DNA of 64,000 nt from Balanoglossus misakiensis (lineage: Eukaryota > Animalia > Hemichordata): assembly GCA_040954595.2 (NCBI GenBank), contig CM082591.2, positions 7,864,047 to 7,928,046 of the forward strand, read 5' to 3'. Position 1 is the first letter of the stretch. Each line of letters starts with the position of its first letter. This document shows positions 6,103 to 59,224 of this stretch, piece by piece. A program made the translations under genes and the position numbers. Under the pieces are notes generated by a model. That model was not told the origin of the DNA, ran no database searches, and saw nothing but the letters and a program-made list of their open reading frames with translations.

Positions 6103-6267
6103 ACGACAGAGACGACCTCCAGATAGATATAGTCCCGAACAATGGAATCTAAAACAGTTTGCTCATACGACTTTATCGTCTATACCATTTATTAATTGCC
6201 ACTATTAATCAAATATCTTTAACTTACTTTAAATGACGAGGACGCCATTTCTCCTCGCAGGGGTGCG

Positions 6268-32600: not shown

Positions 32601-35600
32601 AACAATATTATGACAAAGAAATGGTAAGAAAGCTACAAACAACTGTATTCAAGCCCCATGAGCTGCAACTTTGGGGGATAATTAGGCCAAATAAAAAATA
32701 TGTGCTGTTCCGATTACCCGACCTACCCTAATTTTAAGCCGCCGACCCAAAATTTTTAGAGCTTCGTAAACCCGGAAGTAAAAATAACAATGTCAAATAT
32801 ACAAAATTTATGAAAATTGTGAGAATCACGCAAGAACTATGATGTCATTCTTCTACACTACTGTAGCAAAGATATAAAAAGTAATTGCAAAATAAAAAGA
32901 TTTCCCTACCTATCTACCCTATTTTTGAAAGCCATGTAATCGGAACAGCATGTATATATTTTTTATTTGGCCTTATCATAAATTTTTTTCTCAAACTTTA
33001 CTACCCTTAACCCATGCAGATGTATGCACTGAAGTCTATGCAAGTACTATTAACCCTTAAGTATGAGTGCATATGCAAGTTTTATGAACCCCATTGTATA
33101 GGTACATTTGCAAGTTTTATCCAGACAAATATATAAAGTGGTGCTGCAAACGAATATGGCCGCCACCGTGGGAAAACAGAAAATACAATGAAAACATTGC
33201 ATTCTCCACTTTGAAACTTCATATACAAAACATGATCTCATGCATTAAATCACATGGAAGTAAATGTACTCCACTGAGACATAACATTTTTTATTTTTCA
33301 TTGCAATAATTCACAGTTTTTTAAAATTGTTGGAAATTTCAACTGTAATGATATTTCTACAATTTTGTGGCCATTTCGTCAAAAATAAGTGCTATCATGA
33401 TATAGTATCAGGTAATGTCATTTAAATGATAGAATTAAAAGCTTTCCAAGAATATTGCAGATTTTCAATACACATCTTGTTGGTATAAATTTATGTATTT
33501 TAACAGTAGGTGACATACAATCTAACTTCATATGAACTGTTTATTTACAGCCTCTAGTGACAAAGTACTTGGTATTGCATTGTAATCCGCTCATAGAACT
33601 GCTAAATAAAACACATCAAGGGAGACCAAAATACAAGTAAGTTTATCGTTTAAGGGGAAACTTCTTTTTCTTTCAAAATATTTTGGTTATTTTTGCTTAC
33701 ATGAAAATTTAAATCTTACAAGTCTAAGTGCTGAAATTAAAGGTATACGGTCACCTCCAATTTACATATCGCCATATATAGCTGAAATAGCGTATTTGAG
33801 ACTTCTAAACAACATATGGTGGCGCTATTTTTTTGCGTGTGCCACCCACTGAAAATCTGTGATTGGCTAGATCTTAGTTTACCATGGTAACTGTAGCTAT
33901 ATTTGCATAGGTGACCGTATACCTTTAATGTTAATAATAGACACTCGCTCATTCCCCCCCCCCCCCACCCCCTCCCGCCTGCATTTGCAATCTTATCCCC
34001 TAATGTGAACCATTTCCACAGTCACTAAGAGTACTTTAAGTACAACTAGAGTTGAGGGTCTTTTCTAGCATAGACTGAACTTCCCCTTTAATAGCAAACC
34101 CTCTCTAAGTTATTCCCCTTCTTGCTACTTGTCTTCTTGCTACTCAGAAAACCATGAGACTATACTTGTAGTATTTTTGTTCTGTGTACCATATGTAATT
34201 CTTGTTCTACTCCAAACAGCATGCTAATATACCTACTCCATTTGTCAACATAGCCTGTATGTGTGTGTGTAACCCCCATTGTTATTGTTTACAAATGAAT
34301 TCTAGTCCGGACTTAAATTCACATTTTGCACAATAGCAATGCTGACTATATGCACATAGGTTGTGTTGGGCATTTCACCATGTTTCAGGAAACTGCAGTA
34401 GATACACAAAACAAACATAGAAATTATAGCAAAAAAGTTACAGCTTATGGAGCTTTAAATTTTTTTTATATCTCTTCATGTATCTATTGTGAATAATTTG
34501 TCTCTAAAATTTATTCTTCCTTTGTCAGACATGAGATCCTTGGAGATGAAGAAGTCGCTTTTAAAATGATCAGAACTAATGTTTCTCACGTCGTTGGTCA
34601 GTTAGATGATATCCGAAGAAATCCAAAGTAAGTGGATATTTTCATATTTTTGGCAAACCTTTAAAGGGCCATGATCTACTTATGCGCATGTGTTAAACCA
34701 GAGACTCTGGTTACGGGCGATAGAAATTATTGAGGTCATGCTATTTTATGAGTAATGCTTAAATTTAGCAACTAATGTAAAATAATGCAGTATTCTTTAT
34801 CAATCTTTTTTTTTCTGTAAACGTAAACATTTCATGGAGTTTGTCTGAAAAATAATCATAGCGAATGTTCATGCACTAAATTATCTTATTTTGACTGTGT
34901 TACATGCAAAATTTCATGAAAATGACAATTATAGTAGAAGTGCACGTGGATTTTCTAACAGTTCTTTATGCGACCATATTGAAAGAGACAAATTCCATGT
35001 ATTCATGGAGAGTTTTATCTTTGCTTCTCTGAGACTGACTGACAATTTGGCAAAAATATAAACATTAAGCTCTCGTTTGGTATATGCATATAATGGTAGT
35101 GTTCTGCGTGTGTGTTTATGTGACAGTGTGTATGTGTGTGTGTGTGTGTGCATGTGCATCAGTGTGTATGTGCGTATTGCCTATGTACATTATACTGGTA
35201 TACGGTATATGTGATGGTCGTATGTGCAGGGTGTATGTATATACAAATTAATAAACATGCATGTAATGTATTAACGCAAGTCTTTTCGTTCTCTGCAAAA
35301 TCCTGACCTCTTCACAAATCACAGTCTTTGATGTGAAGATGCAACATCAGGGTTTAGTTGGAGTGAATGTTTGAATGAATAATTCCAATTTAGAAAATAT
35401 GAAAATAGGCATAAACATGAAAAATATAAAAAAAAAACTATTTTCATCTTTTTGGTACCAGAAATATAAGGGCATGTAACATGTTACTTATCTCTCTTGC
35501 TTACAGAAAATTTATTTGTCTAAATGACAATATAGAACATAACAAGAAAGCTGCCGAAACAGTCAAAGCTGTTCTCCACGATTTTTATGAATCATTATTT

Positions 35601-37282: not shown

Positions 37283-38409
37283 CAAAAAAGTAATTTTTCA
37301 TGTGCATCATTTATTTTGTGTTTTTTACAGTGTTTATTTTGGACTACAGAAAAACTCATCTCAGATATTGTTGTAATTTAAAATGGTCATTTAATGGAAA
37401 AATTGCTGGTAGGACAGGTTGGATATTTCTTAGTTACCCTATCCGGTAGTGAACTTCAAATTTCACTAAATTAGTATTTGGGTTTGGAGTTGACGGTATT
37501 ATATGAAATACTAGTACTTAAAATAAGGCACTGTGATTTCAAACAAAACATTTCAATGTGTCTTGCCCATTTTCAAGAATACTGCCATGTTGTTTGACTC
37601 TAGGAGTCGCAGTATGTGGAAATTTCTCTATTCATTTCAGTTGTCATGGAATCTTACAGAAACATACTGTCATGGCAACTAGTGTATTTATTTTGAGTAT
37701 TGAATGAATGTTATTCAAATGTAACAGTGAAACCAGTTTCAGTTTTAGAACGAATTTTATTCAAGCTCCACTAATTTGCATTGTTATTGTGCAAAATTTG
37801 AATTCCAGTCAGAATAGAATTAATTTATCAACAATGTCAGTGGCTGTTACACACATGCAGGCTATGTTGACAAGCGGAGTACTGGGTATATCAACTTGCT
37901 GTTTGGAGTAGAACAAGAAATTGAATTTAATACACAGAACAAAAAATCCTGAAAATAATGCTCCTTTCAAATCCAACAGTAAAACCTGAGTTTCAAGTTT
38001 GATTGAGATGACATAGAAATTGCAAATACCATTTATGATGGTGATTGACAGTTTATTTCCCTACAAGAGGAGATTGAATCCTGTCTGATATTTCTAAATG
38101 TTATAACACAAGTTCTCCTGTTTTTGTTCAGGTGAATGACTAGACGTTTGCAGACTTTACAGGCCGAGATCAAAGTGAGAACTGAACTGCTACCAATGTC
38201 AACATTCCAGGGAATTGCATGACGTGCCATAAAAACTGTTTTCATACAGAAGATTTTCTCTTTGAAAATTCAAATGACCTGTTGTTATGGTTACCAGAAC
38301 TCAGAGGTCGTGATGAGATTTTTGGCTGCACATATTTTTGACGTGTCCATAGAAACAGTCGCGTCAAAATAACGTGTCAGTTTGAGGTAATGGCCCGTTT
38401 ATTTGAACA

Positions 38410-38917
38410 CTGTGTTTAAAAGTAGCGACATATAGACACACATGGTTCAATCAGCAGACAGTCTGTCTTTTGCAACAAGACAAATGAGGGAGTTCTGAGT
38501 GAATAGGATAATTTCACAGATTCATTGTCTGTGTGCACATGCACCTGTCAATCAAACTGGGCCAATTCTAATGATATCTCTGTGTTTAAAAGTAGCGACA
38601 TATAGACACACATGGTTCAATCAGCAGACAGTGTCTTTTGCAACAAGACAAATGTGGGAGTTCTGAGTGAATCGGATAATTTCACAGATTCATTGTCTGT
38701 GTGCACATACACCTGTCAATCAAACTGGGCCAATTCTAATGATATCTCTGTGTTTAAAAGTAAGCGACATATAGACACACATGGTTCAATCAGCAGACAG
38801 TGTCTTTTGCAACAAGACAAATGTGGGAGTTCTGAGTGAATAGGATAATTTCACAGATTCATTGTCTGTGTGCACATGCACCTGTCAATCAAACTGGGCC
38901 AATTCTAATGATATCTC
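38410..38917 (+). repeat. Tandem repeat, 3 x ~169 bp
   Basis: Units start at about 38410, 38580 and 38748 (CTGTGTTTAAAAGTA...). Confidence 0.92.
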
Positions 38918-41302: not shown

Positions 41303-41334
41303 TATGAAAATAATTCCAAATGCTGTTTTAACTT

Positions 41335-44300
41335 GGATGTGTTTGAATGAGGCATTTTTGAAAGCTTTTGAATTTTATAACATGGAAAATCCTGAAGAAA
41401 AACAAAATATCTGGATGGAAACTTGATCTAACCAATGAAGAAATCCTAGAATCTCAATTGCTCATACTTTGTGCATGAATGTAAAGCATGATTAGAACAT
41501 GGATGTGTTTGAATGAGGCATTTTTGAAAGCCTTTGAATTTTATAACGTGGAAAATCCTGAAGAAAAAAAAATATCTGGATGGAAACTTGATCTAACCAA
41601 TGAAGAAATCCTATAATCTCAGTTGCTCATGCTTTATGCATGAATGTAAAGCATGATTAGCACATGGATGTGTTTGAATGAGGCATTTTTGAAAGCTTTT
41701 GAATTTTTTAAAATGGAAAATCCTGAAGAAAAACAAAATATCTGGATGGAAACTTGATCTAACCAATGAAGAAATCCTAGAATCTCAGTTGCTCATGCTT
41801 TGTGCATGAATGTAAAGCATGATTATCACATGGATGTGTTTGAATGAGGCATTTTTGAAAGCCTTTGAATTTTATAACATGGAAAATCCTGAAGAAAAAA
41901 AAATATCTGGATGGAAACTTGATCTAACCAATGAAGAAATCCTAGAATCTCAGTTGCTCATGCTTTGTGCATGAATGTAAAGCATGATTAGCACATGGAT
42001 GTGTTTGAATGAGGCATTTTTGAAAGCCTTTGAATTTTATAACATGGAAAATCCTGAAGAAGAAAAAATATCTGGATGGAAACTTGATCTAACCAATGAA
42101 GAAATCATAGAATCTCAGTTGCTCATGCTTTGTGCATGAATGTAAGCATGATTAGCACATGGATATGTTTGAATGAGGCATTTTTGAAAGCCTTTGAATT
42201 TTATAACATGGAAAATCCTGAAGAAGAAAAAATATCTGGATGGAAACTTGATCTAACCAATGGAGAAATCCTAGAATCTCAGTTGCTCATGCTTTGTGCA
42301 TGAATGTAAAGCATGATTAGCACATGGATATGTTTGAATGAGGCATTTTTGAAAGCCTTTGAATTTTATAACATGGAAAATCCTGAAGAAGAAAAAATAT
42401 CTGGATGGAAACTTGATCTAACCAATGAAGAAATCCTAGAATCTCAGTTGCTCATGCTTTGTGCATGAATGTAAGCATGATTAGCACATGGATATGTTTG
42501 AATGAGGCATTTTTGAAAGCCTTTGAATTTTATAACATGGAAAATCCTGAAGAAGAAAAAATATCTGGATGGAAACTTGATCTAACCAATGAAGAAATCA
42601 TAGAATCTCAGTTGCTCATGCTTTGTGCATGAATGTAAGCATGATTAGCACATGGATATGTTTGAATGAGGCATATTTGAAAGCCTTTGAATTTTATAAC
42701 ATGGAAAATCCTGAAGAAGAAAAAATATCTGGATGGAAACTTGATCTAACCAATGGAGAAATCCTAGAATCTCAGTTGCTCATGCTTTGTGCATGAATGT
42801 AACCATGATTAGCACATGGATGTGTTTGAATGAGGCATTTTTGAAAGCCTTTGAATTTTATAACATGGAAAATCCTGAAGAAGAAAAAATATCTGGATGG
42901 AAACTTGATCTAACCAATGAAGAAATCATAGAATCTCAGTTGCTCATGCTTTGTGCATGAATGTAAGCATGATTAGCACATGGATATGTTTGAATGAGGC
43001 ATTTTTGAAAGCCTTTGAATTTTATAACATGGAAAATCCTGAAGAAGAAAAAATATCTGGATGGAAACTTGATCTAACCAATGGAGAAATCCTAGAATCT
43101 CAGTTGCTCATGCTTTGTGCATGAATGTAAAGCATGATTAGCACATGGATATGTTTGAATGAGGCATTTTTGAAAGCCTTTGAATTTTATAACATGGAAA
43201 ATCCTGAAGAAGAAAAAATATCTGGATGGAAACTTGATCTAACCAATGAAGAAATCCTAGAATCTCAGTTGCTCATGCTTTGTGCATGAATGTAAAGCAT
43301 GATTAGCACATGGATGTGTTTGAATGAGGCATTTTTGAAAGCCTTTGAATTTTATAACATGGAAAATCCTGAAGAAGAAAAAATATCTGGATGGAAACTT
43401 GATCTAACCAATGAAGAAATCATAGAATCTCAGTTGCTCATGCTTTGTGCATGAATGTAAAGCATGATTAGCACATGGATGTGTTTGAATGAGGCATTTT
43501 TGAAAGCCTTTGAATTTTATAACATGGAAAATCCTGAAGAAGAAAAAATATCTGGATGGAAACTTGATCTAACCAATGAAGAAATCATAGAATCTCAGTT
43601 GCTCATGCTTTGTGCATGAATGTAAGCATGATTAGCACATGGATATGTTTGAATGAGGCATTTTTGAAAGCCTTTGAATTTTATAACATGGAAAATCCTG
43701 AAGAAGAAAAAATATCTGGATGGAAACTTGATCTAACCAATGGAGAAATCCTAGAATCTCAGTTGCTCATGCTTTGTGCATGAATGTAAAGCATGATTAG
43801 CACATGGATATGTTTGAATGAGGCATTTTTGAAAGCCTTTGAATTTTATAACATGGAAAATCCTGAAGAAGAAAAAATATCTGGATGGAAACTTGATCTA
43901 ACCAATGAAGAAATCATAGAATCTCAGTTGCTCATGCTTTGTGCATGAATGTAAGCATGATTAGCACATGGATATGTTTGAATGAGGCATTTTTGAAAGC
44001 CTTTGAATTTTATAACATGGAAAATCCTGAAGAAGAAAAAATATCTGGATGGAAACTTGATCTAACCAATGGAGAAATCCTAGAATCTCAGTTGCTCATG
44101 CTTTGTGCATGAATGTAAAGCATGATTAGCACATGGATATGTTTGAATGAGGCATTTTTGAAAGCCTTTGAATTTTATAACATGGAAAATCCTGAAGAAG
44201 AAAAAATATCTGGATGGAAACTTGATCTAACCAATGGAGAGATCCTAGAATCTCAGTTGCTCATGCTTTGTGCATGAATGTAACCATGATTAGCACATGG

Positions 44301-46268
44301 ATATGTTTGAATGAGGCATTTTTGAAAGCCTTTGAATTTTATAACATGGAAAATCCTGAAGAAGAAAAAATATCTGGATGGAAACTTGATCTAACCAATG
44401 GAGAAATCCTAGAATCTCAGTTGCTCATGCTTTGTGCATGAATGTAAAGCATGATTAGCACATGGATATGTTTGAATGAGGCATTTTTGAAAGCCTTTGA
44501 ATTTTATAACATGGAAAATCCTGAAGAAGAAAAAATATCTGGATGGAAACTTGATCTAACCAATGGAGAAATCCTAGAATCTCAGTTGCTCATGCTTTGT
44601 GCATGAATGTAAAGCATGATTAGCACATGGATATGTTTGAATGAGGCATTTTTGAAAGCCTTTGAATTTTATAACATGGAAAATCCTGAAGAAGAAAAAA
44701 TATCTGGATGGAAACTTGATCTAACCAATGAAGAAATCCTAGAATCTCAGTTGCTCATGCTTTGTGCATGAATGTAAGCATGATTAGCACATGGATATGT
44801 TTGAATGAGGCATTTTTGAAAGCCTTTGAATTTTATAACATGGAAAATCCTGAAGAAGAAAAAATATCTGGATGGAAACTTGATCTAACCAATGGAGAAA
44901 TCCTAGAATCTCAGTTGCTCATGCTTTGTGCATGAATGTAAAGCATGATTAGCACATGGATATGTTTGAATGAGGCATTTTTGAAAGCCTTTGAATTTTA
45001 TAACATGGAAAATCCTGAAGAAGAAAAAATATCTGGATGGAAACTTGATCTAACCAATGAAGAAATCATAGAATCTCAGTTGCTCATGCTTTGTGCATGA
45101 ATGTAAGCATGATTAGCACATGGATATGTTTGAATGAGGCATTTTTGAAAGCCTTTGAATTTTATAACATGGAAAATCCTGAAGAAGAAAAAATATCTGG
45201 ATGGAAACTTGATCTAACCAATGGAGAAATCCTAGAATCTCAGTTGCTCATGCTTTGTGCATGAATGTAAAGCATGATTAGCACATGGATATGTTTGAAT
45301 GAGGCATTTTTGAAAGCCTTTGAATTTTATAACATGGAAAATCCTGAAGAAGAAAAAATATCTGGATGGAAACTTGATCTAACCAATGGAGAAATCCTAG
45401 AATCTCAGTTGCTCATGCTTTGTGCATGAATGTAAAGCATGATTAGCACATGGATATGTTTGAATGAGGCATTTTTGAAAGCCTTTGAATTTTATAACAT
45501 GGAAAATCCTGAAGAAGAAAAAATATCTGGATGGAAACTTGATCTAACCAATGAAGAAATCCTAGAATCTCAGTTGCTCATGCTTTGTGCATGAATGTAA
45601 AGCATGATTAGCACATGGATGTGTTTGAATGAGGCATTTTTGAAAGCCTTTGAATTTAATAACGTGGAAAATCCTGAAGAAAAAAAAATATCTTGAAGGA
45701 AACTTGATCTAAGCAATGATGAAATCATAGAATCTCAGTTGCTTATGCTTTGTGCATGAATGTAAAGCATGATTAGCACATGGATGTGTTTGAATGAGGC
45801 ATTTTTGAAAGCCTTTGAATTTTATAACATGGAAAATCCTGAAGAAAAAAAAGATATCTGGATGGAAACTTGATCTAACCAATGAAGAAATCCTAGAATC
45901 TCAATTGCTCATGCTTTGTGAATGAATGTAACCATGATTAGCACATGGATGTGTTTGAATGAGGCATTTTTGAAAGCCTTTGAATTTTATAACATGGAAA
46001 ATCCTGAAGAAGAAAAAATATCTGGATGGAAACTTGATCTAACCAATGAAGAAATCATAGAATCATCAGTTGCTCATGCTTTGTGCATGAATGTAAAGCA
46101 TGATTAGCACATGGATGTGTTTGAATGAGGCATTTTTGAAAGCCTTTGAATTTTATAACGTGGAAAATCCTGAAGAAGAAAAAATATCTGGATGGAAACT
46201 TGATCTAACCAATGAAGAAATCCTAGAATCTCAGTTGCTCATGCTTTGTGCATGAATGTAAAGCATGA
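41335..46268. repeat. Satellite array, ~30 x 164-165 bp
   Basis: Unit CATGGAT(A/G)TGTTTGAATGAGGC...GCATGATTAGCA repeated head to tail, homogeneous in the centre. Confidence 0.98.
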
Positions 46269-46303
46269 TCAAACACACAGGTATTGATTTTATCACATTC
46301 TCA

Positions 46304-46319: not shown

Positions 46320-47862
46320 TACTTTGGTGCTACATGTAGATATATGTTGCCAAGAAAACTGACTTACATGTACATAGTAGTTGTGACACACAAACACATC
46401 ACCCAACACGTTCACTAATATAGTACAAATTCTAGATTACAACTGATGGGGTATCTGACTTGCAAAACTTTTACAAATCCGTTCTACAATCATGGGATAG
46501 TTTTTCCATAAGTTCTTGCATCAAGTTCAATAGTAACACGACTCTTGACTATTGATAAAGTCAATGCCATATACAGATGTATACTTTCTCAATTATGCAT
46601 TCAAGTACATCTTAAATTTAAACAAATTCAAAGTATAATACAGCAAATACAAACATACTGTAGTTATTTACAACACAAATTTAAAAACTACCGGCCTCGA
46701 AGTTTACTCCCCATAAAAATGTCACTATAGTTGTCTACTCAAATAACTTAACTGTACTTCACAAGAAAACAAAACAATATACAGAATCATAAAATTTGTG
46801 CAAAAGTCATCTCTAGACAAGCTTAGGAGGACTTTCCTCAAAACGTACACTTTGTACAGCTCTGGGCAACAGTTGGCCCAGTCGGCCTGATAGCAAAAAT
46901 GGTCATAGCGCCCCCTGCCGGCGGTGTGCCTTATGAACCAAGAATACTTTATCTTTTCGTAAAGTAGTTGACTTTCAGCCAGTACAGCAAATTTTTACTT
47001 TTTGAAATCCAGTGAAACAAAATAAAAATAGTCGACATTCTTTACATATCTCATAAAAACTGCAAAGTCGTTCTGCAGCGTAGTCTCATGTCAGAGTCTC
47101 GATCGAGCTAGCTGCAAGTGCGCCCTCTACACCGTTAAAAACAAAATGTAAAAGATTGTCGTTCACATCCCTTGTTCATATATTTTTGAAATAACAACAA
47201 TTTCGGACTAACGAATGGTAATCTATATAAATTACAACGCAATACATATCAGGCGATTTACAGGTAAGTTTTTAGAATTATTTTGCACACATAAATTGAT
47301 GAATCGCCTTCATCCTTTCGGATGCAATGGAGATCTGACGGAAGGTGGACTGTACATCATAACTTTCAGACCCCTCCATGTCAAAATTCATGAAAAAAAC
47401 GAGTAAAAATATTCCAAAACGACTTAGATTTGGATTATTTATACTCGTTACATGAAGCGACTGTAGACTGAAATATTATTTTTCCAAAATGGTCTTTGTA
47501 AATGTGGAAAAGAGAACAGAATTTTTGATTGTTTACATGCCAAGTTGACGAAATGCATTCAGTTTCAAACAGTCTTGTATCAAAATCCCTCAAAATAAAC
47601 TGCAAAAATAATTCAAAACAGCCTTAATTTATTTTGTCAACACTCAGTACATGTAGCGACTGCACCTACTACTAATTTCTGTTCCGAATTTTACTTCAAA
47701 ATGTGGAAAATAACTCCAAAAATTGTGAAAGTGACATTGGTTCAGTTTGAACTTTGTTGCCATGGCATGCGATCAATCGTAAATTTATCGACGCTGCCTC
47801 TAAATTTTCTCCCAAATTTCACTGTTTTTGATGTCGTGTGGACATGTATTTCATGGTGATGT

Positions 47863-48680
47863 TTATGTCTGCTTGTGGAATACTTTGATTTGGTCGCTGT
47901 ACCACTCTCCAACAGCAATACTGTCACCGCTGACTGCAAGGAAGCAGGGGAGTCTCACCTCACCTTCAAATAAGTGACAGATCCACTCTCCATCAAATCT
48001 CCATTTCACAATCCTTTGATTATACCGATCACACACGAACAAATTATCGTCGTCATCAACGTCAATGCTGCGTGGACGCCACAGCTGACCAGGACCTGAA
48101 CCTTCCACACCAAATTGATACAAGAATTTCAATTCAGCATCAAAACACTTGATGCAGTAATTGTGACAGTCAGACACCATGATGACATTCTTACTGTTGA
48201 CCACCACAGAGTATGGGGAACGGAATTGTGTTTGGCCATCACCTTCACCACCAACCTCTGCAACATACTGACCATCTTGGGTGTACTTGAGTAGCCGATG
48301 ACCTGTGACCTCAGTGACCAAAACAAATCCATTCAGTAAAGCGATGCCCCTGGCATGGACGCCTGCAGGTAGAGTAATTATTCTAAGAATTTTATTGTTT
48401 TGATCACAAACAACAATTTGAGAATTTCCATCGTCACTTATGAAGTAGATGTTGTCATGGGAGACAGCTACATCCCGTGGCTGGAATGGCTTTGCAAACT
48501 GACCATCAAAACTTCCCAAGACTTTGTCACAGGTGTAATCTTGATTCAGTATCTGTACAACCCTGTTGCCTTGGTCACACACCACCAGTTTGTCACCATG
48601 GAACACCATACCCCATGTCTCTTTAAACTTTCGCCCTGGCTTTGGACTTTGGCCATCCAGTGTCCTCACTGACCAGTGAC
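47863..48680 (-). CDS. Exon 8: NHL-repeat beta-propeller (TRIM2/TRIM71-like)
   Basis: FQPRDVAV, FRSPYSVVVN..NVIMVSDCHNYCIKCF, GQLWRPRSIDVD...VCDRYNQRI; ends in TAA. Confidence 0.9.
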
Positions 48681-51600
48681 CTGTTAGGTGAAACAGAGGT
48701 CAAAGGTCAAACATGCTGTACCCTATTGAAATGCATTAGGATTGTGTTAGATTAGTGTTTTATTGTTCATTTTAACAAGAGAAAACATATTACAAAAGAA
48801 ACGAATCATTGCTATGACAACTGAACTACTAAAGGGCAGTTTCTCTACACAATGTTTACAGTGACAAGTAACCATGGCAACGAGACTAACCCCCAGTTTC
48901 TGGAACTATTTCTTTTTTTCTGCAATACCGAGGAAGAAATTTACTGTGTCTCTTTGTTGACAGATTATTATAATATGCATGAAAGACATTCTATTTAACC
49001 ATTCAATAGATATACTAACATTGATGTTGCTATGGTAACACATTTGAGGAAATCAGGTCAAAAATAATATTTTTCGTGTAACTTTTGACTTCATAGACAT
49101 TTCATAAAAAATCTTGCACTAAACTTCAGGGATAATTTCTTATATCATTATTTTTCTGAACAAATTTATTATGGTAACATTATTAACTGGTAACCATGAC
49201 AACTGAATTTATTTTGAAAAATATTGCATTATGCAAGAGTTCTAAAGTGTTTCAATATAACTTCTTTTACCAAATCGAATTAATGCTTGGATAAATTTTC
49301 TGTTAAAGTACTCTATATGTTTGAAGTCTCTCAATACCAAGTAACCGTGGTAACATACATGGAACAGATCAGTAAAACAATGATCATTGTTTTTTAATTT
49401 TAAAGATGGTTATGTTGAATATATTGATTTTGATATTTCTTGAAAACATGTTTACAATCATTTTGAACCAAATACACATACACTAGTTAGTAGGTCAGCA
49501 AGTTCTTGGTTTGTGTTATAGGTCGGAAAAGAAAAATGCCGTATGAATGAGATGAATATACATTTGTTTCTTATTCTAGTTGACCAGAGATGGTCTGCTT
49601 TCAAATCAGTAATTATCACATTGGTGAAGAGAGAACAAATCTACTGTCCTCAGCTGAGAAGGCTGCCACTTTCTGAGACCAAGTGAGTATTTTTGTTGAA
49701 CAAATGCATGAGAAAATAATTGTTGTAACTTTAACTTCAGAGAATTTACTGATAATGTTGTCCTATAATAGTGGGCTACTTGAAACGAAAATAGACTATT
49801 GAAAATGGTAAAATATTTTGAGTAAAACCTGCAGTCACTTTAGGATGAGTCATGATAATGGTCTGTCTCAACACCACTGGCTGTTCCAGATTTTCACTTG
49901 GATAAAAAATATTGGTAAGTCCCTAATTTGAATTTCATAATTTTAATTGTACTATGAATGCAGTGGGGTAAGCTAAATGTATAAAACATTTTCGTACAGT
50001 GCTATTAACCCTATTACCACCATGGTTTGGTCCAAGTCCATCATTTTCTATGGTAAATGTGGATCTCTATAGAGGGAACTAGGGGGTAAAGGGTTAACAT
50101 GTGGTCCTTGAGGAAACACTGAAAGACTATTAGCCACTGATGCTTTACTCTGAACAGATGATTCCAGTGAAATGTGTACTTTTACATTTAGCCTCGACAT
50201 TTTCTGAGCATGTCAGGTTTCATTGCCTTACCTTTCTCACCTGTAGTCTGTCTTTCTTTTGACTTTGGTTCATCTTGTTTGGTTAGGTCTGTAGACCCAG
50301 ATGCCTCTTCTCTTGTTGTCTCAGGTTGTGTTGGTTTGGTTTTGGCATCCCCCGTTTCTTTTTCTGCAGTTGTCTCAGGTTGTGGATGTTTGGTTTCCCC
50401 CGATCCAGTTTCTTCTTCTCTTCTCATCTCAGGTTGTGTTGGTTTGGTTTTGGCATCCCCAGTTTCTTTTTCTGCAGTTGTCTCAGGTTGTGTTGGTTTG
50501 GTTTTGGCATCCCCAGTTTCTTTTTCTGCAGTTGTCTCTGGTTGTGGATGTTTGGTTTCCCCCGATCCAGTTTCTTCTTCTCTTCTCATCTCAGGTTGTG
50601 TTGGTTTGGTTTTGGCATCCCCAGTTTCTTTTTCTGCAGTTGTCTCTGGTTGTGGATGTTTGGTTTCCCCCGATCCAGTTTCTTCTTCTCTTCTCATCTC
50701 AGGTTGTGTTGGTTTGGTTTTGGCATCCCCAGTTTCTTTTTCTGCAGTTGTCTCTGGTTGTGGATGTTTGGTTTCCCCCGATCCAGTTTCTTCTTCTCTT
50801 CTCATCTCAGGTTGTGTTGGTTTGGTTTTGGCATCCCCAGTTTCTTTTTCTGCAGTTGTCTCAGGTTGTGGATGTTTGGTTTCCCCCGATCCAGTTTCTT
50901 CTTCTCTTCTCATCTCAGGTTGTGTTGGTTTGGTTTTGGCATCCCCATTTTCTTTTTCTGCAGTTGTCTCAGGTTGTGGATGTTTGGTTTCCCCCGATCC
51001 AGTTTCTTCTTCTCTTCTCATCTCAGGTTGTGTTGGTTTGGTTTTGGCATCCCCATTTTCTTTTTCTGCAGTTGTCTCAGGTTGTGGATGTTTGGTTTCC
51101 CCCGATCCAGTTTCTTCTTCTCTTCTCATCTCGGGTTGTGTTGGTTTGGTTTTGGCATCCCCAGTTTCTTTTTCTGCAGTTGTCTCAGGTTGTGGATGTT
51201 TGGTTTCCCCCGATCCAGTTACTTCTTCTCTTCTCATCTCAGGTTGTGTTGGTTTGGTTTTGGCATCCCCAGTTTCTTTTTCTGCAGTTGTCTCAGGTTG
51301 TGGATGTTTGGTTTCCCCCGATCCAGTTTCTTCTTCTCTTCTCATCTCAGGTTGTGTTGGTTTGGTTTTGGCATCCCCAGTTTCTTTTTCCTCAGTAGTT
51401 TCAGTATCACCAGCTTTAATTCAAAATTGAAATGACAAGACACAAATTTAATTCCCTTGAGATTGTAATGTTAATAAATATATCTTCAGAAGCCTGATAA
51501 AGAGTGTTGAAAATTAAACAGAATATGGTGACCTCAGTTTAAAGTAGAAAACAAATCAGAAACATTCTCGTATACAGTTAATGATAGTGAAAATTGAAGC

Positions 51601-54600
51601 AACAAGATAAAATGGAAGCCAATATGGTACATCCTCTGGATTGTTGTAATCATCAGCATGTCTCATTTACAAGGCTTAATAATAATATGAACCAGCCATT
51701 GTTTATGTCACATGTGACCACATCCCAAAGTAAAACTTAAAATCAATCTCACCTTGTTCAGTTTTCAATGTGATCTCTTCTCCCAGTTGAAGAGCCATAG
51801 CCTTTTTCAGTTGCAGCTCATTATCATATTGCTCATCATGTTTTTTTGATAATTTCAACTTGAGTTCAGCAATTATTTGGTCTTTCTGATCAAGTTTGGA
51901 CTTCAACTCTTGGATGTGTCTAGGGTCTGATTCTTCTAATCTTTGCTTGAGGGAAATGACATCCAGAAGTTGTGTGAAAGCTACTTTTTCAGTTTTTTCA
52001 AGTTTCTGAACACAATCTTTGTACTGCTTTTCTAAGAGGGACTTTTCCTGAATTGCTTCTTTCAACTGATTCTCTAGAATCGTGTTTTCTGCTCGAAGTT
52101 TGAACTTTTCTGCCAAGGTCTCATCCATCTGCTGTTTTAGAGATTTTGTATCTGATTTCAAGGACTGCATTTCTTGGAACTGTTTTAGACTAACTTCAAA
52201 GGGCAGTAAGCTTTGTGCTTGTGAGCTGATAGATTCATCTGTAATGGAAAGAACTGGTGTGCCATATTGTATGATTTTTTCCTCCAAATCTGAAATGAAG
52301 TAGATTTAATAATTATTATTTAAATGTACACTTAGCAATCTGCAGATCTGAGTAGATGCTGTTGCCAAATACTTTCACATTATTATTTAGATCTGTGAAG
52401 TAAATTTCACCAAATTATTGAACTAGGTATAATATGCAGGAAACATTGGCTGTCAAATTCCATGAATTTTGAATGTGCCAGTTTTATATTTTGATAGAAA
52501 ATTTACTGATGGATGTATGGCTATAATTGTTCCTTGAGAGTAGTGATTTTTGAGAACGAGGAAAATATTTCCTTTACTATTGGCTGCTTTGTAAAAGTAC
52601 CACTACCACAGAAAAGCTCACACCACATATCTTGGTACTGAAAGAAAAACATTCTCAGACTCCCAGAGGTTCTGTTAAACCTTTGGAGTCATGTGTAATA
52701 TGCTTGTCAGACTTGGTGACTAATGTTGTAATAAAAATCACTGTTTATTACCTGATTCACGGAAATCAGTCCTTTCTGTGTCAGTCATAAGATACCTTCT
52801 TACACCCAGTAACTCTAAGACGCGAGGTCTGTGAGATAGGATATGCTGAACTTTCTTGGTCATTTTCCCAGATAGTTGTATGATGTCAAACTCTCTTCCT
52901 TTCTGTCTTTTACACTGCTCACTGTCAAATATCTGAGGTGCATGTTTGTCTGCTGACTTCTGGAATTCATGTGTCCGATCAATCTCAAGAAACAACTTGG
53001 ATAATGTCCCACCTGCAAAACATACAAATCCTGTTATCTACAATTGTTTTTTCTGAAAAAAAAAACTTAACAATGATACCTCTAGCTGTGTTAAATGATT
53101 TCTATCTAAACGGCCAAAACGACGCCATTGCCCATGATTTAAATGACAGTAAGGTAGGTTTAGAAAATTCAAATGATGACAAACCAAAATCTTATATTCA
53201 CCTTGTTTCTGGTCAGTCTGAAAATGATCAGAACCGATTTCCATCTCTGCATCTTGGAAAGCCACACAAGTTCTGTGAAACTTTATTGGAAATGTAATGA
53301 TTATGGTTTAGTGGTAAAAGCAACAAATATGTGGAAATCGTTTATGACCGAGGTAATAGAAATGTAATACATGTATCAGGACATTACAGTCTTCCATTCA
53401 ATTGTTAAATGCATCAATTTACTATAATTCTTTACTGCGTTAGTCATTAGTTTGATATGCTATATTATATTATACCAGTATATTGATGGTGTAAATCACG
53501 CTATTTTATTGGTCGAGACACGACACGTGACTGTGATATATTCGTCACAAACCACAGTCATATATCACGCAAAACTCATAGTCAAAGAAAATGCCTTTTT
53601 AAAATGTTTTATGCAAAGTTTCAATATACTGGTATAATATAATAGCAATAAAACACCCCCAGCCATGGTATACCACTCGATTTTGACCAGTTCAACTCCA
53701 TATACGCACTCCCTATTGCGAGTGCGTATATGTCATGAACTGGTCAAAATCTCGTGGTATACCATGGCTGGGGGTGTTTTATTGCTTAATCATTTACTCC
53801 TTATAATAACACAATCTAATGTACCTCATCCATTATTTCATCAACACTTTCCTCTTCTACTCTATCATCATATTCCGGTATTTCCACTGGGCCTATTCCC
53901 CCACCATCTCCTGAAAGACAATAAATGGGAAAAGTCATGAAGTACAGTCTGATGTTTTGAAAGAATGTTTGTCTAAACTTTGAGCATTAAACTTATTAAT
54001 TAATACTACAACTTAATTAGCCATGCAAAATACTCTCTGATGTTGTTCATTGGGTTGTAATAAGTTATACTTTAAAATATCAGAAACCTGACGACAAACT
54101 TACTGTTCAGAAAGAATAGTTCCAGTTCATCAAACCTGGCTTGGTCATATGTTGCTGTCAACTGTAGTGGAATTCCAGTTCTGTTGGCCTCCTCTCTCAT
54201 TTCATCTGTTATCAAGATTGGTTCAAACGCTTCAGGTAAACTTCTTGATTGACAGGTTGCCCGCAATTTAAAGAGATTAAAAAGTACAGGCGTGTTTACT
54301 GTGATTTGCAGTGATCCCTCCTTCATATCGGTTACGTCCACTTCACCCATTATGTCAGTGCAAGCCTTCTTGACTTTGTTGATGTCATCACCGTTGGTTA
54401 CCACTTCAGCTGCTCTTCTCTCCAACCCCTGTTTGCATTTGTCCCAAGATGCAGAAGCCGCCTGCTGCATTGCCTCATTCGGTGCTTCGTCTTGTAGATG
54501 CTGCTGATAGGCATTTTCATCCAGTCTGAGATGAAATGAAATGGTTGTGTCTTCATGGTTTTCTGTGTTTTGTAGTGGCTCTGCTGCCATACTTGATACC

Positions 54601-57080
54601 ACATCCTCCTCATCATGAATCTCCTCTATTTGCTTGTTGTTGTCGTTACTATTGGTTACTGCCTCCTCTGCTTTTCTCTTCACTGGTTGTTGCCTTGGTA
54701 GCTGATCTGCTCCATTCTGTCCAGCGTTCATGGGATTTTGGTGATTGACATCTTCGTCTGGAATGATCAGAATAATACAGGGTGCAGAAATAAAGCTAGG
54801 TTAGTTTAAAGCAATAGAAGGTACTGAACCATGAGTGATTTTTGTTGGCTCAAAAATGCCCACACAAATATGTAACTTAAATTAGAACCCATACCAAAAA
54901 TGTTTTATAAGTTGATGTCCCATGTTGAAACTGTTGAACAGAACATCTAGATAAGTTTGTTTGTTTGTTTGTTTGAACATACCTTTTGACTTTCTGCTTT
55001 GGTCAATTGTGTGTTCCTGGTGTTCTTTCTTCCCTGGTGACATCAGACCGGCAAATGTAGCATAACTCTTATTCACATCCTCACTCACTTTGAAAGCATT
55101 CTTCAATTCTGTAGCTTGGATAAAGGCAAGCCTGATGTTACTGACAATCTTCATTACCCTCTTCACTTTTCCATCAATAGTGTTAGGCAATAAGATGGTT
55201 TTTGAAAACTCTGGGAAGTATTTGTTCAGAAACTGACCAAGTTCAGAATCTTCATCTGGTAAGGTTGGTATTCCAATGGCCACAGATTCTAACCCAATAA
55301 ACCCATATTTCTTGTAGAAGGATGCAGGAAGACAAATGTGAGACTTTAGCAGTGATGTTTGCAGACTATTTTCTGTGTAATATAAGTTGAGATATGTCTT
55401 CACATGATCACTCTTCATTTTGGCTGTAAGGCCCTTCAACTCTGTTTGACGGATTTCTGGTGAAGCTCCCAGTATTCGCCATTCAGGAGGTCTGCGGCCA
55501 ACTCTTTTCCGCACATTTGCTACTCTTCCGATGGAAGCAGCCAGCATCTCGCATCTGTTCAAGGCTTCTGGTGTATCAAACTGTCCATATGTCAGTATGC
55601 GGTGAATTTCCACTTCATCAGGTAATGTTGGATCTTTGTCAAAGAAGACTTTCCCTGGTCTTGGAAGAATCTCCATGTGAGGGATACTGGATAGTTTCTT
55701 TCCATTAATTTCTGCCCTGTATTCGTTAGTGAAATGCTCATACATTTTTGGACCAATTGACAATATGACGTCAGCTTCACTGGCCATCTTCAGCATCATC
55801 TCACTGAGGTTCCCGTCTGGAATTTCCAACAGACAGTTATCATCTTCATAGGCATGGTTAATCATAACAAGTTTAGCAGCTGGAAACAACTTTGCTCTGA
55901 TGTCTATAGCAGCGAATCCGGTCTTTGGAGCGTAACCAACAACATACTGGATGTTTTCTAACTTTCTGAGATCAGGAAAGTAGCTTTCATGATTCAACAA
56001 CCATTTTAAGTCCGGTTGATCAGTGATGTCTTTTGGTTGTGCTGGAATCAATGTAACATCACAACTGGCAGCATCTGCCTTCTGGTCATCACTGACTTTG
56101 ACACCAACAAAGGTGGAGTAGGCTTGAACAGGTTTTCCTTCTTTGACTTTCCTTGCACAGAAATCTTGTACGAGAGTTCTGTGAAACCCGTTCAAGTCAC
56201 AGTCCTCTTTGTTCCATTCTTCATTTACAAATAATATTCCAGGAGGTGGATCTGGAAGACTGAGTTGGTGAAGTTTGGCTTCAGGGAAGAGACTTTCACG
56301 AATTGCTGCGGCTGCATTGTGTGTCTGTGGAGAATATCCGACTACATGTTGGATGTTTTTCAGTTCCTTCAGTCCTGGGTAGTAGATTGTGTGACTGACA
56401 AGCCAGTGTTCTCCAGGTGGATCTTTCTTTGGATCCAACCACTTGTTTCTTTTGGCTGGGATCAAAGTGACATTCACACTCTTTGCATCTTTCTTTTGTT
56501 CTTCACTCACTTCAACTTCAAGGGTAGTACAGAGGAATTCAGAAACATTCTCAGACTTTATATCTTCACGGAACTCATTGACAAGCATATGACTTGGTTT
56601 TGTAATCTGCCCTTCTGAGGTTGTATCCCAGGTTGGTAGTAGCAGTAACGCTGCATCTGGTGGTTCAGGAAGTGAGAGTTGGTGAAGTTTGGCTTCAGGG
56701 AAGAGACTTTCATGAATTGCGGCTGCTGCATTGTGTGTCTGTGGAGAATATCCGACTACATGTTGGATGTTTTTCAGTTCCTTCAGTCCTGGGTAGTAGA
56801 TTGAGTGACTGACAAGCCAGTGTTCTCCAGGTGGATCTTTCTTTGAATCCAACCACTTGTTTCTTTTGGCTGGGATCAATGACACATCAACACTCTCTGC
56901 ATCTTTCTTTTGTTCTTCACTGACTTGAACTTCAAGGGTAGTACAGTGGAATTCAGAAACGTTCTCAGACTGGAGTGTGTTTTCTTTGAGATGTTTGATT
57001 ATAGCTTGAGTAGGTTGGGAGGTCTTTGCCTCCTTGTCCCATGATTTCAATACAACCAGTGCTGCAGATGGTTCTGACAT
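47863..57080 (-). CDS. Multidomain protein ~1900 aa: GT4/GT-B glycosyltransferase-like region, TRADD-N-like domain, coiled coil, 36-aa repeats, NHL propeller; 8 coding exons
   Basis: Exons 57080-54983, 54757-54104, 53910-53825, ~53253-53202, 53012-52752, 52289-51753, 51413-50232 and 48680-47863 have compatible phases and GT/AG sites (exon 4 acceptor uncertain). Confidence 0.78.
50232..51413 (-). CDS. Exon 7: E/T/K/P-rich tandem-repeat stalk
   Basis: Open frame of 36-aa repeats; AAG acceptor; donor at 50232 (or 50241). Confidence 0.75.
50310..51395 (-). repeat. 108-bp coding tandem repeat made of two 54-bp subunits, ~10 units
   Basis: PEMRREEETGSGETKHPQ-PETTAEKETGDAKTKPTQ. Confidence 0.95.
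51753..52289 (-). CDS. Exon 6: coiled coil
   Basis: Heptad-rich LKQQMDETLAEKFKLRAENTILENQL; phase 1-1. Confidence 0.8.
52752..53012 (-). CDS. Exon 5
   Basis: GTLSKLFLEIDR...DFRES; TTTTGCAG acceptor, CAG/GTAAT donor. Confidence 0.7.
53202..53253 (-). CDS. Exon 4 (acceptor uncertain)
   Basis: DAEMEIGSDHFQTDQKQ; AAG/GTGAAT donor; supplies the phase 0-to-1 change the model needs. Confidence 0.5.
53460..53790 (-). mobile_element. Non-autonomous element with a ~140-bp terminal hairpin
   Basis: GCAATAAAACACCCCCAGCCATGGTATACCAC...GTGGTATACCATGGCTGGGGGTGTTTTATTGC; inverted copy at about 60705-61020. Confidence 0.75.
53825..53910 (-). CDS. Exon 3
   Basis: RDGGGIGPVEIPEYDD...MDE; TTTCAG acceptor and GT donor. 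Confidence 0.65.
54104..54757 (-). CDS. Exon 2: acidic linker and TRADD-N-like domain
   Basis: DMKEGSLQITVNTPVLFNLFKLRATCQSRSLPEAFEPILIT; CAG/GT, phase 1-1. Confidence 0.75.
54983..57080 (-). CDS. Exon 1: glycosyltransferase family 4-like region with repeated N-terminal lobes
   Basis: ATG MSEPS after acceptor CCTGATAG; ILFVNEEW...NGFHRTLV; ASEADVILSIGPK; CLPASFYKKYGFIGLESVAIGIPTL resembling the GT4 PS..E.FG...LEA...G.P motif. Confidence 0.8.
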
Positions 57081-57671
57081 TGTATTCCTATCAGGAAGAA
57101 GTATGGGCAAGGAAATATGTGAGATTGTAACAACTGTTTCTCTGAAGAGTGACTGTTTAAATATCCATGCACATAGTCACATTGCAATACTGAGTAGGGA
57201 GCTAGAAGGTCAAGTGAGGTCACAGTGTGTTAGAAATCAGGCTACAACATGTCTGATTAAATATTAACCAAATACCTGAGGTATGTAATTGTCTCAAAAC
57301 TGACAAAGTTTGAATGGAAGTATGAACTCGTACTTGCCAAGTATGAATGATGTAATGTCGGGTAGTATATACATGTACGGTATATGTCACACATTTGCCT
57401 TTTGGTTACATTTCATATTGTGCGTAAAATAAAAAGTCTTCTTGGTTTTCATTTATTTGCAGATTGGTAAGGTATTTTTTTTTAAATGCTACATATTTGA
57501 GAAGAAAACAGCTGTATATAGGACAAATCAAAAAGCTGCAACGGTATGTTGACCTATGATATTAGGCTTTTCATGCTAGGCGGCCATCATGCACTTACTC
57601 CTGTCAACGTATGCATAGCCCCGTGGCCAATACATCAATCATTACGATTGCTTTCGAATAGATGGTTAAAC

Positions 57672-57980
57672 TTAAAGGGACAAAGTCTCTCTCTTGCTGC
57701 CCTTTTTCCATTAATTATATTTGAAACAAGACACTGTTTATGTCATTCTACATGTGGATGTACCGGTATAGTGAATCAATGTTCAACCACACACACCTTC
57801 CATCCCACTTGCAGACACGAGAGTGAAAACTTTTTACTCTCATATGCTACATATGGGATAGAAGTTGTGTGTGGTTGAATGTTGATTCACTATATATCAA
57901 CATGCAGAATAACAACAGTGTCGTGTATCAAACATAATTAATGGAAAAAGGGCAGAGAGAGAGAGACTTTGTCCCTTTAA
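57672..57980. mobile_element. Foldback MITE family A copy
   Basis: Family A TIRs and TTAA flanks. Confidence 0.8.
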
Positions 57981-59224
57981 ACGTCTATTTGAAAGCAATC
58001 GTAATGATTGATGTACTGGCCGCAGGGCTTTGTCTCTTTAAAACATCAAGCAAGCCAAAAGAATCACAGAAAACGAACTTCGTAATAATCTGTGCACAAT
58101 TAAATGTCCGGTTTCCAAAAATATCGAAAATATTCTACGTAAATGCTTCAAAGAAAGTGGTCGCCCAGACGCATTGAAACGTACATATGTCTACTCGAGG
58201 CTAGCCGGAATTGCTTTGTGTGTCATGGGTCTCCACCTTGGTCAAAGGCTTCTAATCACCTGACTAGGACTTTTCTCGCTCGATCATAGCGGTCGCGTCG
58301 ACTGACAATTGAGATGTGATGTTCATTTTCAACTGAAAATTAGGCCTCAAGAAAACAAAATTGTTCGTAAATTTCTGATCATTTGATCATCGGCCGACAT
58401 TAGAGAGATCCTCTACCAAAAATGGGGCTTCAAAAATAAAAAAAAAGTTGTTCGTAAATTCCCGATGATACATTGATTTATTTTCGTAAATTTCCATTTC
58501 CATTACCATAATCATTATTTAGGATTTGTTGTTATTACATCTAGTACACTAAAAGAATAAAGTGCTTTTCAGTGAGAACACGAAAGTGTTAAATTATAAG
58601 AATTTGAAGTTTGTAGACCTCCATATGACCAATGGCCAGGATGTGTGGTACTTTGTAACTTGTTTAGCCTTTGTTATAGAATGGCGACAAAACATGTTGT
58701 TAATATACATGTACAGTTATTCTACATTATTGACAGATTGATACTGTGGAAGGGCAGTGGAGCCTGGAAGGTCAAAGGAGGTCACACCGCGACAATAATG
58801 TATGGTTTAAATGTTAACTATACTATACGGTACATTAACACCATGTCCAAGTATAATGGACAGAATTGCTAAACCTTAATCTAAATTCTGTTATCATTAC
58901 TTAAAGGTGTGTGATCACAATCTATTCTTTGGTACCTTGTTATCTTATCAAATATTTGCAGTGTGCAGACCACAGTTACCAGCAGCATTATGGTATTTGT
59001 AAAGTTTGGGTTTGAAATGATCCATCAAAAGTGTTCTTGGGAGAAATATGTTGAAATGTCAATCATTACTTATTGATCAAAATTGACCTGCATGCAGTGC
59101 ATTTAAAATAAGTTTCATTCTTTCATTTTCAATTCATGTCTGGAAGGGAGCATTCAAAAAATTGACATGACAGCTTTTCCCCACACAGATTTAGACGTGG
59201 GTGGGTATGGCCATACACACAAAT

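What the first reader, a model, noticed from the sequence alone, without database searches (positions are those of the whole stretch)
47863..57080. Glycosyltransferase-like / TRADD-N-like / coiled-coil / repeat stalk / NHL fusion: candidate innate-immune sensor-effector
Seen: eight phase-compatible minus-strand exons give ~1900 aa, beginning with a GT4-like region and ending in an NHL propeller, with no RING or B-box visible. Established: animal NHL propellers usually sit in TRIM-NHL proteins, and GT4-type domains occur as N-terminal modules of cnidarian NLRs. Inference: the TRIM head is replaced by a glycosyltransferase-like effector plus an EGSL-motif TRADD-N-like adaptor. This gives an effector-adaptor-oligomeriser-sensor layout like an NLR but without a NACHT. 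I do not know a characterised protein with this architecture.
Basis: partly seen in the sequence, partly recalled or inferred. Interest (0 to 1): 0.82.

Follow-up and report, generated by a model that had tools for sequence, protein, structure and literature searches.

The report
Degraded glycosyltransferase with hypervariable propeller sensor
This eight-exon gene, likely from an acorn worm, joins a sugar-transferase domain that has lost several standard active-site residues to a predicted signalling adaptor and a propeller whose binding face differs sharply between gene copies, so it is likely a variable intracellular immune sensor rather than a sugar-adding weapon; the basic layout was already listed for amphioxus.

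Summary
Eight phase-compatible minus-strand exons give 1901 aa: GT4-conflict domain (Pfam E 1e-39), TRADD-N-like domain, coiled coil, repeat stalk and NHL propeller; Pfam found no RING or B-box. Of 53 acorn-worm relatives with a full GT4, 21 carry the same GT4 + TRADD-N + NHL order. The layout is not new. Kaur et al. 2021 describe GT4-TRADD-N fusions in hemichordates, and their amphioxus entry XP_019644604.1 ends in an NHL propeller. The 'effector' reading is doubtful. The first Glu of E-X7-E is kept in 2 of 53 acorn-worm copies against 121 of 121 amphioxus copies, the phosphate-binding Arg in 2 of 53 against 111 of 121, and this copy also lacks the family's shifted acid. The second Glu and the His are kept, so an altered enzyme is not excluded. 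New here: a hypervariable propeller top face, two extra half N-lobes, and a predicted GT4-TRADD-N dock (0.74; best control 0.00). The scan noted the same eroded chassis with other tails elsewhere in this genome. No transcript evidence. Verdict: new variant of a known kind.

The parts
56661..57080 (-). Extra half N-lobe copy A (aa 1-140), start of exon 1; ends before the His after strand 5
   Evidence: 48 of 133 identical to the GT4 N-lobe, 104 of 136 to copy B
56247..56660 (-). Extra half N-lobe copy B (aa 141-278)
   Evidence: 51 of 133 identical to the GT4 N-lobe; A and B group together in a FastTree of 26 units with support 0.79, suggesting recent homogenisation
54983..56246 (-). GT4-conflict (GT-B) domain, aa 279-683, rest of exon 1; Gln500 at the Arg site, Lys590 at the first Glu of E-X7-E, Glu598 and His409 kept
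   Evidence: Pfam PF20706 E 9.9e-40; motif tallies
54104..54757 (-). Exon 2: acidic linker, then TRADD-N-like domain (about aa 769-917) with Ser848 in the Gly-Ser turn
   Evidence: Atlas 0.93 to a PF20694 cluster; model pLDDT 95; Foldseek first hit 1F3V, E 0.46; profile match to Kaur-labelled TRADDN domains
53825..53910 (-). Exon 3: conserved end of the TRADD-N region and acidic linker
   Evidence: 54 of 86 hits span the exon 2/3 junction
53202..53280 (-). Exon 4: short linker, least certain exon (weak acceptor)
   Evidence: Needed to keep the frame; 2 of 4 hits span the exon 4/5 junction
52752..53012 (-). Exon 5: conserved 86-aa domain of no known family
   Evidence: Found in 26 relative rows; no Pfam hit under E 0.1; Atlas best 0.77 for a relative's copy
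51753..52289 (-). Exon 6: predicted coiled coil (about aa 1095-1225)
   Evidence: Hydrophobic period 3.54, 1 of 1000 shuffles as strong; conserved in relatives
50241..51413 (-). Exon 7: 391-aa Thr/Glu/Pro-rich stalk of 36-aa (2 x 18-aa) repeats
   Evidence: 108-bp period, 98% matches; related 18-aa repeats in P0007, P0018, P0019
47863..48680 (-). Exon 8: six-bladed NHL propeller in one exon, with stop
   Evidence: Pfam NHL E 3.7e-16; best solved relatives TRIM71 and Thin, E about 1e-39; first Met lies inside blade 1
47628..47633 (-). Candidate poly(A) signal about 230 nt past the stop
   Evidence: Only AATAAA in 1463 nt downstream; use not shown

Best explanation
This gene is one copy of an expanded acorn-worm family that is likely a set of intracellular immune sensors: the variable NHL propeller is predicted to bind an invader molecule, and the degraded, probably non-catalytic GT4 domain is predicted to dock on the TRADD-N adaptor, which would pass the signal on. 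Shown: exon structure, domain identities, family expansion, motif loss, top-face variability. Predicted by a model: a GT4-TRADD-N contact on the back of the N-lobe. Inferred: the coiled coil oligomerises and the stalk spaces the propellers; ligand binding clusters them; the GT4 domain acts as a scaffold or nucleotide-binding lid; the TRADD-N Ser turn, which is not among the confidently predicted contact residues, recruits a downstream partner such as a TRAF. The ligand is unknown; RNA is the leading guess from the TRIM71 likeness.
For: 21 of 53 acorn-worm proteins with a full GT4 also carry TRADD-N and NHL hits. The window's GT4 sits with three Ptychodera flava proteins (SH-aLRT 99, quick tree) on the acorn-worm side of a branch with support 100. 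Motif loss, 53 acorn-worm against 121 amphioxus domains: first Glu 2 vs 121, Arg 2 vs 111, Lys in column 13 vs 117; the roles of these residues are from PMC8760489 and PMC3898925. The three amphioxus GT4-TRADD-N-NHL proteins keep E-X7-E and Lys-Gly but have Gly at the Arg site. This copy also lacks the shifted Asp/Glu kept by 51 of 53 relatives. NHL top-face entropy is 2.53 bits against 1.31 for bottom loops and 1.09 for the rest, 0 of 10000 random sets as high; six close pairs differ at 78 of 139 top-face sites against 186 of 1348 others. These sites include the ones that bind RNA in zebrafish LIN41. GT4 with TRADD-N scored ipSAE 0.74, best of 3 controls 0.00, runs agreeing in at least 84% of contacts, partner pLDDT 89; the mark was reached by 51 of 78 solved and 2 of 108 mismatched microbial pairs, and by 39 of 65 and 2 of 126 eukaryotic ones. 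The contact includes Pro467 (51 of 53), His468 (53 of 53) and the TRADD-N Tyr site (39 of 40).
Against: No transcript, expression or biochemical data. The second Glu (53 of 53), the His (49 of 53) and a shifted acid (51 of 53) are conserved, and 34 of 53, this copy included, have a basic residue within one position of the Lys site, so the family may be a re-tooled enzyme; PMC8760489 notes that one Glu is expendable in some GT4 enzymes. The Arg site is also Gly in 6 of 121 amphioxus domains that keep the other motifs. Whole-domain identity is no lower for NHL (0.49) than for GT4 (0.47), and selection (dN/dS) was not measured. The GT4 side of the predicted contact is no more conserved than average (1.76 vs 1.70 bits). 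The TRADD-N fold match is weak (E 0.46; Z 4.2, tied with other ferredoxin-like folds). No downstream partner was tested. 32 of the 53 relatives lack the TRADD-N + NHL pair.
Confidence: 0.55

Rival explanations
1. Active effector: the NHL senses, and the GT4 domain glycosylates an invader or host molecule, in this clade with a changed donor or chemistry.
For: Full-length GT-B match. Second Glu 53 of 53, His 49 of 53, shifted Asp/Glu 51 of 53, basic residue near the Lys site in 34 of 53. PMC8195603 proposes GT4 as an effector. One Glu can be expendable.
Against: Arg kept in 2 of 53, first Glu in 2 of 53, Gly-Gly loop in 1 of 53 (6 are gapped there) against 92 of 121. This copy has Lys at both acid positions and Asp in the Gly loop.
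Confidence: 0.25
2. Not immune: an RNA regulator working like TRIM71/Brat, with the GT4-TRADD-N part as a passive scaffold.
For: Closest solved propellers are RNA-binding TRIM71, Thin and TRIM2/3; Arg residues occur on this copy's top face.
Against: The RNA-binding positions are the most variable ones among paralogues. The same chassis carries TPR, NB-ARC and PARP14-like tails, and one member a DED.
Confidence: 0.1
3. The joined model is wrong: the GT4 part and the NHL exon belong to separate transcripts, or this copy is decaying.
For: No RNA support for this locus. 32 of 53 relatives lack TRADD-N + NHL, including the close relative P0034. One Glandiceps gene has isoforms with and without NHL (P0219, P0071). 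Exon 4 has a weak acceptor. AATAAA occurs in introns 3, 5 and 7. This copy has lost extra active-site residues.
Against: 1901 codons without a stop. Exon 8 has no Met before blade 1, and intron 7 has no stop-free frame over 77 aa on the coding strand. 21 of 31 hits span the stalk/NHL junction. Colinear RefSeq proteins exist in two genera, several with multiple isoforms.
Confidence: 0.1

Closest known systems
GT4-TRADD-N (DEDD2 clade) proteins of cnidarians, cephalochordates and hemichordates (Kaur et al. 2021, PMC8195603); closest entry Branchiostoma belcheri XP_019644604.1
   Same: Order GT4-conflict, TRADD-N, variable tail; XP_019644604.1 also ends in an NHL propeller; lineage-specific expansion.
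   Different: The amphioxus protein keeps E-X7-E and Lys-Gly and has no extra half lobe, exon-5 domain or long stalk. Its NHL is only 26% identical to the window's and scores 76 bits against 139 for TRIM71, so the two NHL fusions may be separate events (not tested on a rooted tree).
Uncharacterised Ptychodera flava and Glandiceps talaboti RefSeq proteins (e.g. XP_070561900.1, XP_070557115.1, XP_077985452.1)
   Same: Colinear over all domains, 43-51% identical in GT4 for P. flava; same motif erosion; extra half lobe in 37 of 45 P. flava rows.
   Different: This copy has two extra half lobes (shared with P0001 and P0034 only) and has lost the family's shifted acid.
TRIM-NHL proteins (TRIM71/LIN-41, TRIM2/3, Brat, Thin)
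   Same: C-terminal six-bladed NHL after a coiled coil; E about 1e-39.
   Different: No RING, B-box or filamin hit; the RNA-binding face is hypervariable, not conserved.
Coral NLRs with N-terminal glycosyltransferase domains (recalled, not read; GT4 expansion in Acropora is noted in PMC8195603)
   Same: GT4-type head, oligomerising middle and repeat-type sensor tail.
   Different: No NACHT/STAND NTPase and no LRR in this protein.

Membership tests
GT4-conflict (PF20706) domain | Full-length profile match above the curated cut-off | tested here: met
   137 bits vs cut-off 26, profile 1-372 of 385
Catalytically active GT4 enzyme | First Glu of E-X7-E (donor sugar) | tested here: not met
   Lys590; Glu in 2 of 53 acorn-worm vs 121 of 121 amphioxus domains
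Catalytically active GT4 enzyme | Second Glu of E-X7-E (ribose) | tested here: met
   Glu598; 53 of 53 relatives
Catalytically active GT4 enzyme | Pyrophosphate-binding Arg | tested here: not met
   Gln500; Arg in 2 of 53 vs 111 of 121
Catalytically active GT4 enzyme | Pyrophosphate-binding Lys | tested here: inconclusive
   Asn508 in column but Arg509 next to it; basic residue within one position in 34 of 53
Catalytically active GT4 enzyme | Sugar transfer activity | not testable with these tools
   Needs an enzyme assay
TRADD-N superfamily (DEDD2 clade) | Tiny-Ser turn between strands 2 and 3, Ser sometimes Cys | tested here: met
   Gly847-Ser848; Ser 38, Cys 2 of 40 relatives; feature from PMC8195603
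TRADD-N superfamily (DEDD2 clade) | Sequence link to labelled members | tested here: met
   Exon-2 profile hits 8 of 121 amphioxus proteins at 7-15 bits, including XP_019644604.1 and XP_019616577.1; best of 605 reversed or shuffled controls 3.3 bits; hhalign runs through the domain; Atlas 0.93
TRADD-N superfamily (DEDD2 clade) | RRM-like alpha+beta fold matching TRADD-N | tested here: inconclusive
   1F3V is the first Foldseek hit but E 0.46; 1F2H Z 4.2, rmsd 4.6, 98 aligned, tied; my model began after strand 1
TRADD-N superfamily (DEDD2 clade) | Pfam PF20694 hit | tested here: inconclusive
   No hit for exon 2, but three Kaur-labelled proteins also give none
TRIM-NHL proteins | N-terminal RING and/or B-box | tested here: not met
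   No hit in six exons scanned; relatives give no tblastn hit outside 47866-57080
TRIM-NHL proteins | C-terminal NHL propeller | tested here: met
NLR / STAND receptors | NACHT or NB-ARC NTPase | tested here: not met
   No hit in six exons scanned; exons 3 and 4 are under 30 aa each
Innate immune receptor (works-like claim) | Induced by or binds an invader molecule | not testable with these tools
   No RNA run could be listed for this locus

The most novel reading that the evidence does not exclude
Acorn worms run a diversified repertoire of NTPase-free cytosolic receptors in which a TRIM71-type RNA-binding propeller face evolves like a variable receptor to read foreign RNA shapes, while a bacterial-derived glycosyltransferase has been turned into a non-catalytic lid on a TRADD-N switch, with duplicated half lobes serving as extra ligand sites or decoys for pathogen inhibitors.
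Probability: 0.3. Interest if true: 0.75.

Novelty: new variant of a known kind. Interest (0 to 1): 0.5.

Why it matters
GT4-TRADD-N proteins were proposed as enzymatic effectors of marine invertebrate immunity, and I found no tested member. This locus gives three sharp, testable predictions. The acorn-worm clade has lost standard donor-binding residues that amphioxus copies keep, which makes a natural active/inactive pair. The propeller varies on exactly the face that binds RNA in TRIM71. The two constant domains are predicted to dock, which fits the published idea that TRADD-N holds its neighbours inactive. If true, it adds an NTPase-free diversified receptor family in a deuterostome lineage close to chordates.

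Tried and rejected
No whole genome is held, so paralogues in this genome could not be counted. RNA runs: none was listed, which is no evidence either way. A single-sequence model of exon 2 was poor (pLDDT 67) and its fold search gave only beta-sandwich noise; discarded. The alignment-based model started after strand 1, which weakens its fold searches. Pfam gave no TRADD-N hit in exon 2 or in 51 relatives. Sequence searches of the PDB with GT4 gave only weak GT hits, E 0.1-1, and the exon-2 family profile found no TRADD entry. Exon 5 stays unassigned. The careful GT4 tree did not finish; the quick tree is quoted, and it warns of long branches near the root. No rooted NHL tree with TRIM outgroups was built, so separate NHL capture in amphioxus and acorn worms is only suggested. 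A/B half-lobe tract: 8 synonymous and 8 non-synonymous codon differences in 101, too few to read. An upstream DED exon like that of P0022 was sought by tblastn and not found. Literature: searches found no paper on GT4-NHL fusions or on loss of GT4 motifs in hemichordates; term searches of PMC10210618 (text and one supplement) and PMC11175523 (text) found no NHL or glycosyltransferase. Subscription papers and supplement file 4 beyond its stored cut were not seen. Rejected: 'TRIM with a replaced head' and 'architecture without precedent'.
Full report
Observation. The stretch 47863-57080 holds eight minus-strand exons that join without a stop into 1901 aa. Six of seven introns are phase 1, and the GT4, TRADD-N, exon-5, coiled-coil, stalk and NHL modules each sit mainly in one exon, which suits exon shuffling (inference). 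Exon 1 matches Pfam GT4-conflict at aa 283-663 (E 9.9e-40) and exon 8 matches NHL (E 3.7e-16); no RING, B-box or NTPase family was hit in the six exons scanned. The closest solved propellers are TRIM71 and Thin. Exon 6 has heptad periodicity (1 of 1000 shuffles) and exon 7 is a 108-bp repeat with similar 18-aa units in relatives. Exon 4 is the least certain part.

One gene? No RNA run was listed, so the join is not shown directly. Indirect support is good. A search among longer proteins returned 28 hits: 25 Ptychodera flava, 2 Glandiceps talaboti, 1 amphioxus, many colinear with the whole model. After dropping 11 isoform rows and 34 rows without a full GT4 domain, 53 acorn-worm rows remained (45 P. 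flava, 6 Glandiceps, 2 Saccoglossus; labels). Of these, 45 carry the TRADD-N-like domain and 21 also NHL. Two of the 21 have identical GT4 domains and are probably isoforms, and two have partial propellers. Exon 8 has no Met before blade 1 and intron 7 has no long frame. Against: 32 of 53 lack the full set, and one Glandiceps gene has isoforms with and without NHL, so shorter transcripts may also exist. The source is likely an acorn worm other than P. flava (best identity 51%; inference).

TRADD-N. Pfam misses exon 2, but it also misses three proteins that Kaur et al. label TRADDN-DEDD2. The Atlas gives 0.93 to a PF20694 cluster, with recognition below its threshold. A 41-row alignment gave a pLDDT 95 model whose first Foldseek hit is TRADD-N 1F3V, though at E 0.46; VIA gives 1F2H Z 4.2, tied with other folds. 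The model lacked strand 1. A profile of the domain hits 8 of 121 amphioxus GT4 proteins at 7-15 bits, including two labelled ones, against 3.3 bits for the best of 605 controls, and hhalign aligns the Gly-Ser turn. Ser is kept in 38 and Cys in 2 of 40 relatives, as PMC8195603 describes. I take the assignment as likely.

What is already known. PMC8195603 (seen: abstract, sections 8 and 11 whole, passages of other sections, term searches of the supplements; file 4 is cut when stored) describes GT4 preceding TRADD-N in cephalochordates, hemichordates and cnidarians and proposes GT4 as an effector. Its supplement lists Saccoglossus GT4+TRADDN proteins and XP_019644604.1 as GT4+TRADDN-DEDD2+Beta-propeller. 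That protein came up in my search (P0158) and its propeller is NHL (E 2.6e-23); two more amphioxus proteins share the layout. So the core architecture is on record, though uncharacterised and not called NHL there. In the 12 of 13 passages on 'inactive' or 'eroded' that I saw, none calls GT4 inactive.

The GT4 domain is eroded. GT4 enzymes use an E-X7-E motif and an Arg/Lys pair (passages of PMC8760489 and PMC3898925). Two independent alignments agree. In 121 amphioxus domains the first Glu is present in 121, the Arg in 111, the Lys in 117. In 53 acorn-worm domains the figures are 2, 2 and 13. The second Glu (53), the His (49) and an Asp/Glu shifted by one place (51) are kept, and 34 have a basic residue within one place of the Lys site. 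The window's copy has Gln at the Arg site, Lys at both acid positions, Asp in the Gly loop, and keeps Glu598, His409 and a neighbouring Arg509. A standard NDP-sugar transfer is therefore unlikely in this copy, while nucleotide binding or altered chemistry in the family stays open. The amphioxus set was chosen by likeness to one amphioxus query and capped at 120 of 215 hits, so it is not a random sample.

Extra half lobes. Residues 1-278 are two copies of the first five strands of the GT4 N-lobe, cut before the conserved His (strand count inferred from the sequence). A tandem extra copy is found in 37 of 45 P. flava rows, 0 of 8 Glandiceps and Saccoglossus rows and 0 of 121 amphioxus rows (the profile is weaker on amphioxus, hitting 110). 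Extra copies form their own group in a FastTree. The N-lobe binds the acceptor in WsaF, so the copies may be extra ligand sites or decoys; this is untested.

The propeller face. I took four positions per blade (before and after the Pro site, two after the Asp site). By spacing, these include LIN41 residues 564, 581, 611, 628, 629, 658 and 676, which bind RNA (passages of PMC5908797; alignment; mapping by hand). In 21 sequences (3 amphioxus, 4 Glandiceps and isoform rows left out) their entropy is 2.53 bits against 1.31 for approximate bottom loops and 1.09 for the rest. In six hand-picked close pairs 56% of these sites differ against 14% elsewhere. Whole-domain identity is not lower than for GT4. 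This is the pattern of a diversifying binding face, but selection was not measured and the ligand is unknown.

Predicted dock. GT4 (aa 281-685) and TRADD-N (aa 769-917) scored 0.74, best of 3 controls 0.00, with runs agreeing in at least 84% of contacts and partner pLDDT 89; the mark was reached by 51 of 78 solved and 2 of 108 mismatched microbial pairs, 39 of 65 and 2 of 126 for eukaryotes. My alignments were not used. The model supports binding; it does not show it. The contact uses aa 403, 437-438, 462-469 and 671-683 against aa 856-872 and 914-916, including Pro467, His468 and the near-invariant Tyr site; the TRADD-N side is more conserved than average (195 of 10000 random sets), the GT4 side is not. 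Ser848, whose counterpart binds TRAF2 in TRADD, is not among the named contacts. The half lobes lack most of this docking site.

Mechanism and rivals. Most likely (0.55) the protein is a sensor: variable NHL input, coiled-coil clustering, a GT4 lid on a TRADD-N output. Rivals are an active, re-tooled effector (0.25), a non-immune RNA regulator (0.1) and a mis-joined or decaying gene (0.1). The same chassis carries TPR, NB-ARC+TPR and PARP14-like tails in relatives, which argues against a TRIM origin of the gene as a whole. Two unreviewed notes of this scan report the same eroded chassis with other tails in this genome; I had found the motif loss before that look-up, and I did not test their loci.

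Verdict. Real feature, domain calls right, architecture already listed, effector role doubtful. New variant of a known kind; interest 0.5.

Noticed in passing
window 453-6208 (+): Ty3/gypsy-like LTR retrotransposon: gag with RRM, PNMA and zinc knuckle, then RT, RNase H and integrase; pol is interrupted by an in-frame stop at 4058-4060.
   Followed up: partly
window about 21800-37300 (+): Exons with weak LNR and DMAP-binding hits, likely a GNPTAB-like gene (name recalled); its large exon 29054-30229 holds a 30-bp coding repeat of 11 copies.
   Followed up: partly
window 41334-46269: Tandem array of 30 copies of a 165-bp unit at 97% identity, 1.6 kb past the gene's stop; the unit looks coding-like.
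   Followed up: no
window 57614-58032 and 53644-53786: MITE-like nested inverted repeats 0.5 kb upstream of the ATG, and a 51-nt palindrome in intron 3.
   Followed up: no
window 52752-53012 (-): Exon 5 encodes an 86-aa domain conserved in 26 relative rows with no Pfam or Atlas assignment.
   Followed up: partly
window 57087 (-): An AG lies 7 nt before the ATG with the frame open upstream to 57176, so an upstream exon (untranslated or coding) is possible; relative P0022 has an N-terminal DED, but tblastn found none here.
   Followed up: partly
protein P0077 (Glandiceps talaboti, XP_077990954.1): The same eroded GT4-TRADD-N head is fused to a PARP14-like RRM/KH/Macro body of 3027 aa.
   Followed up: no
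window 36414-36742 and 38410-38917: Short tandem arrays of 171-bp and 169-bp units.
   Followed up: no
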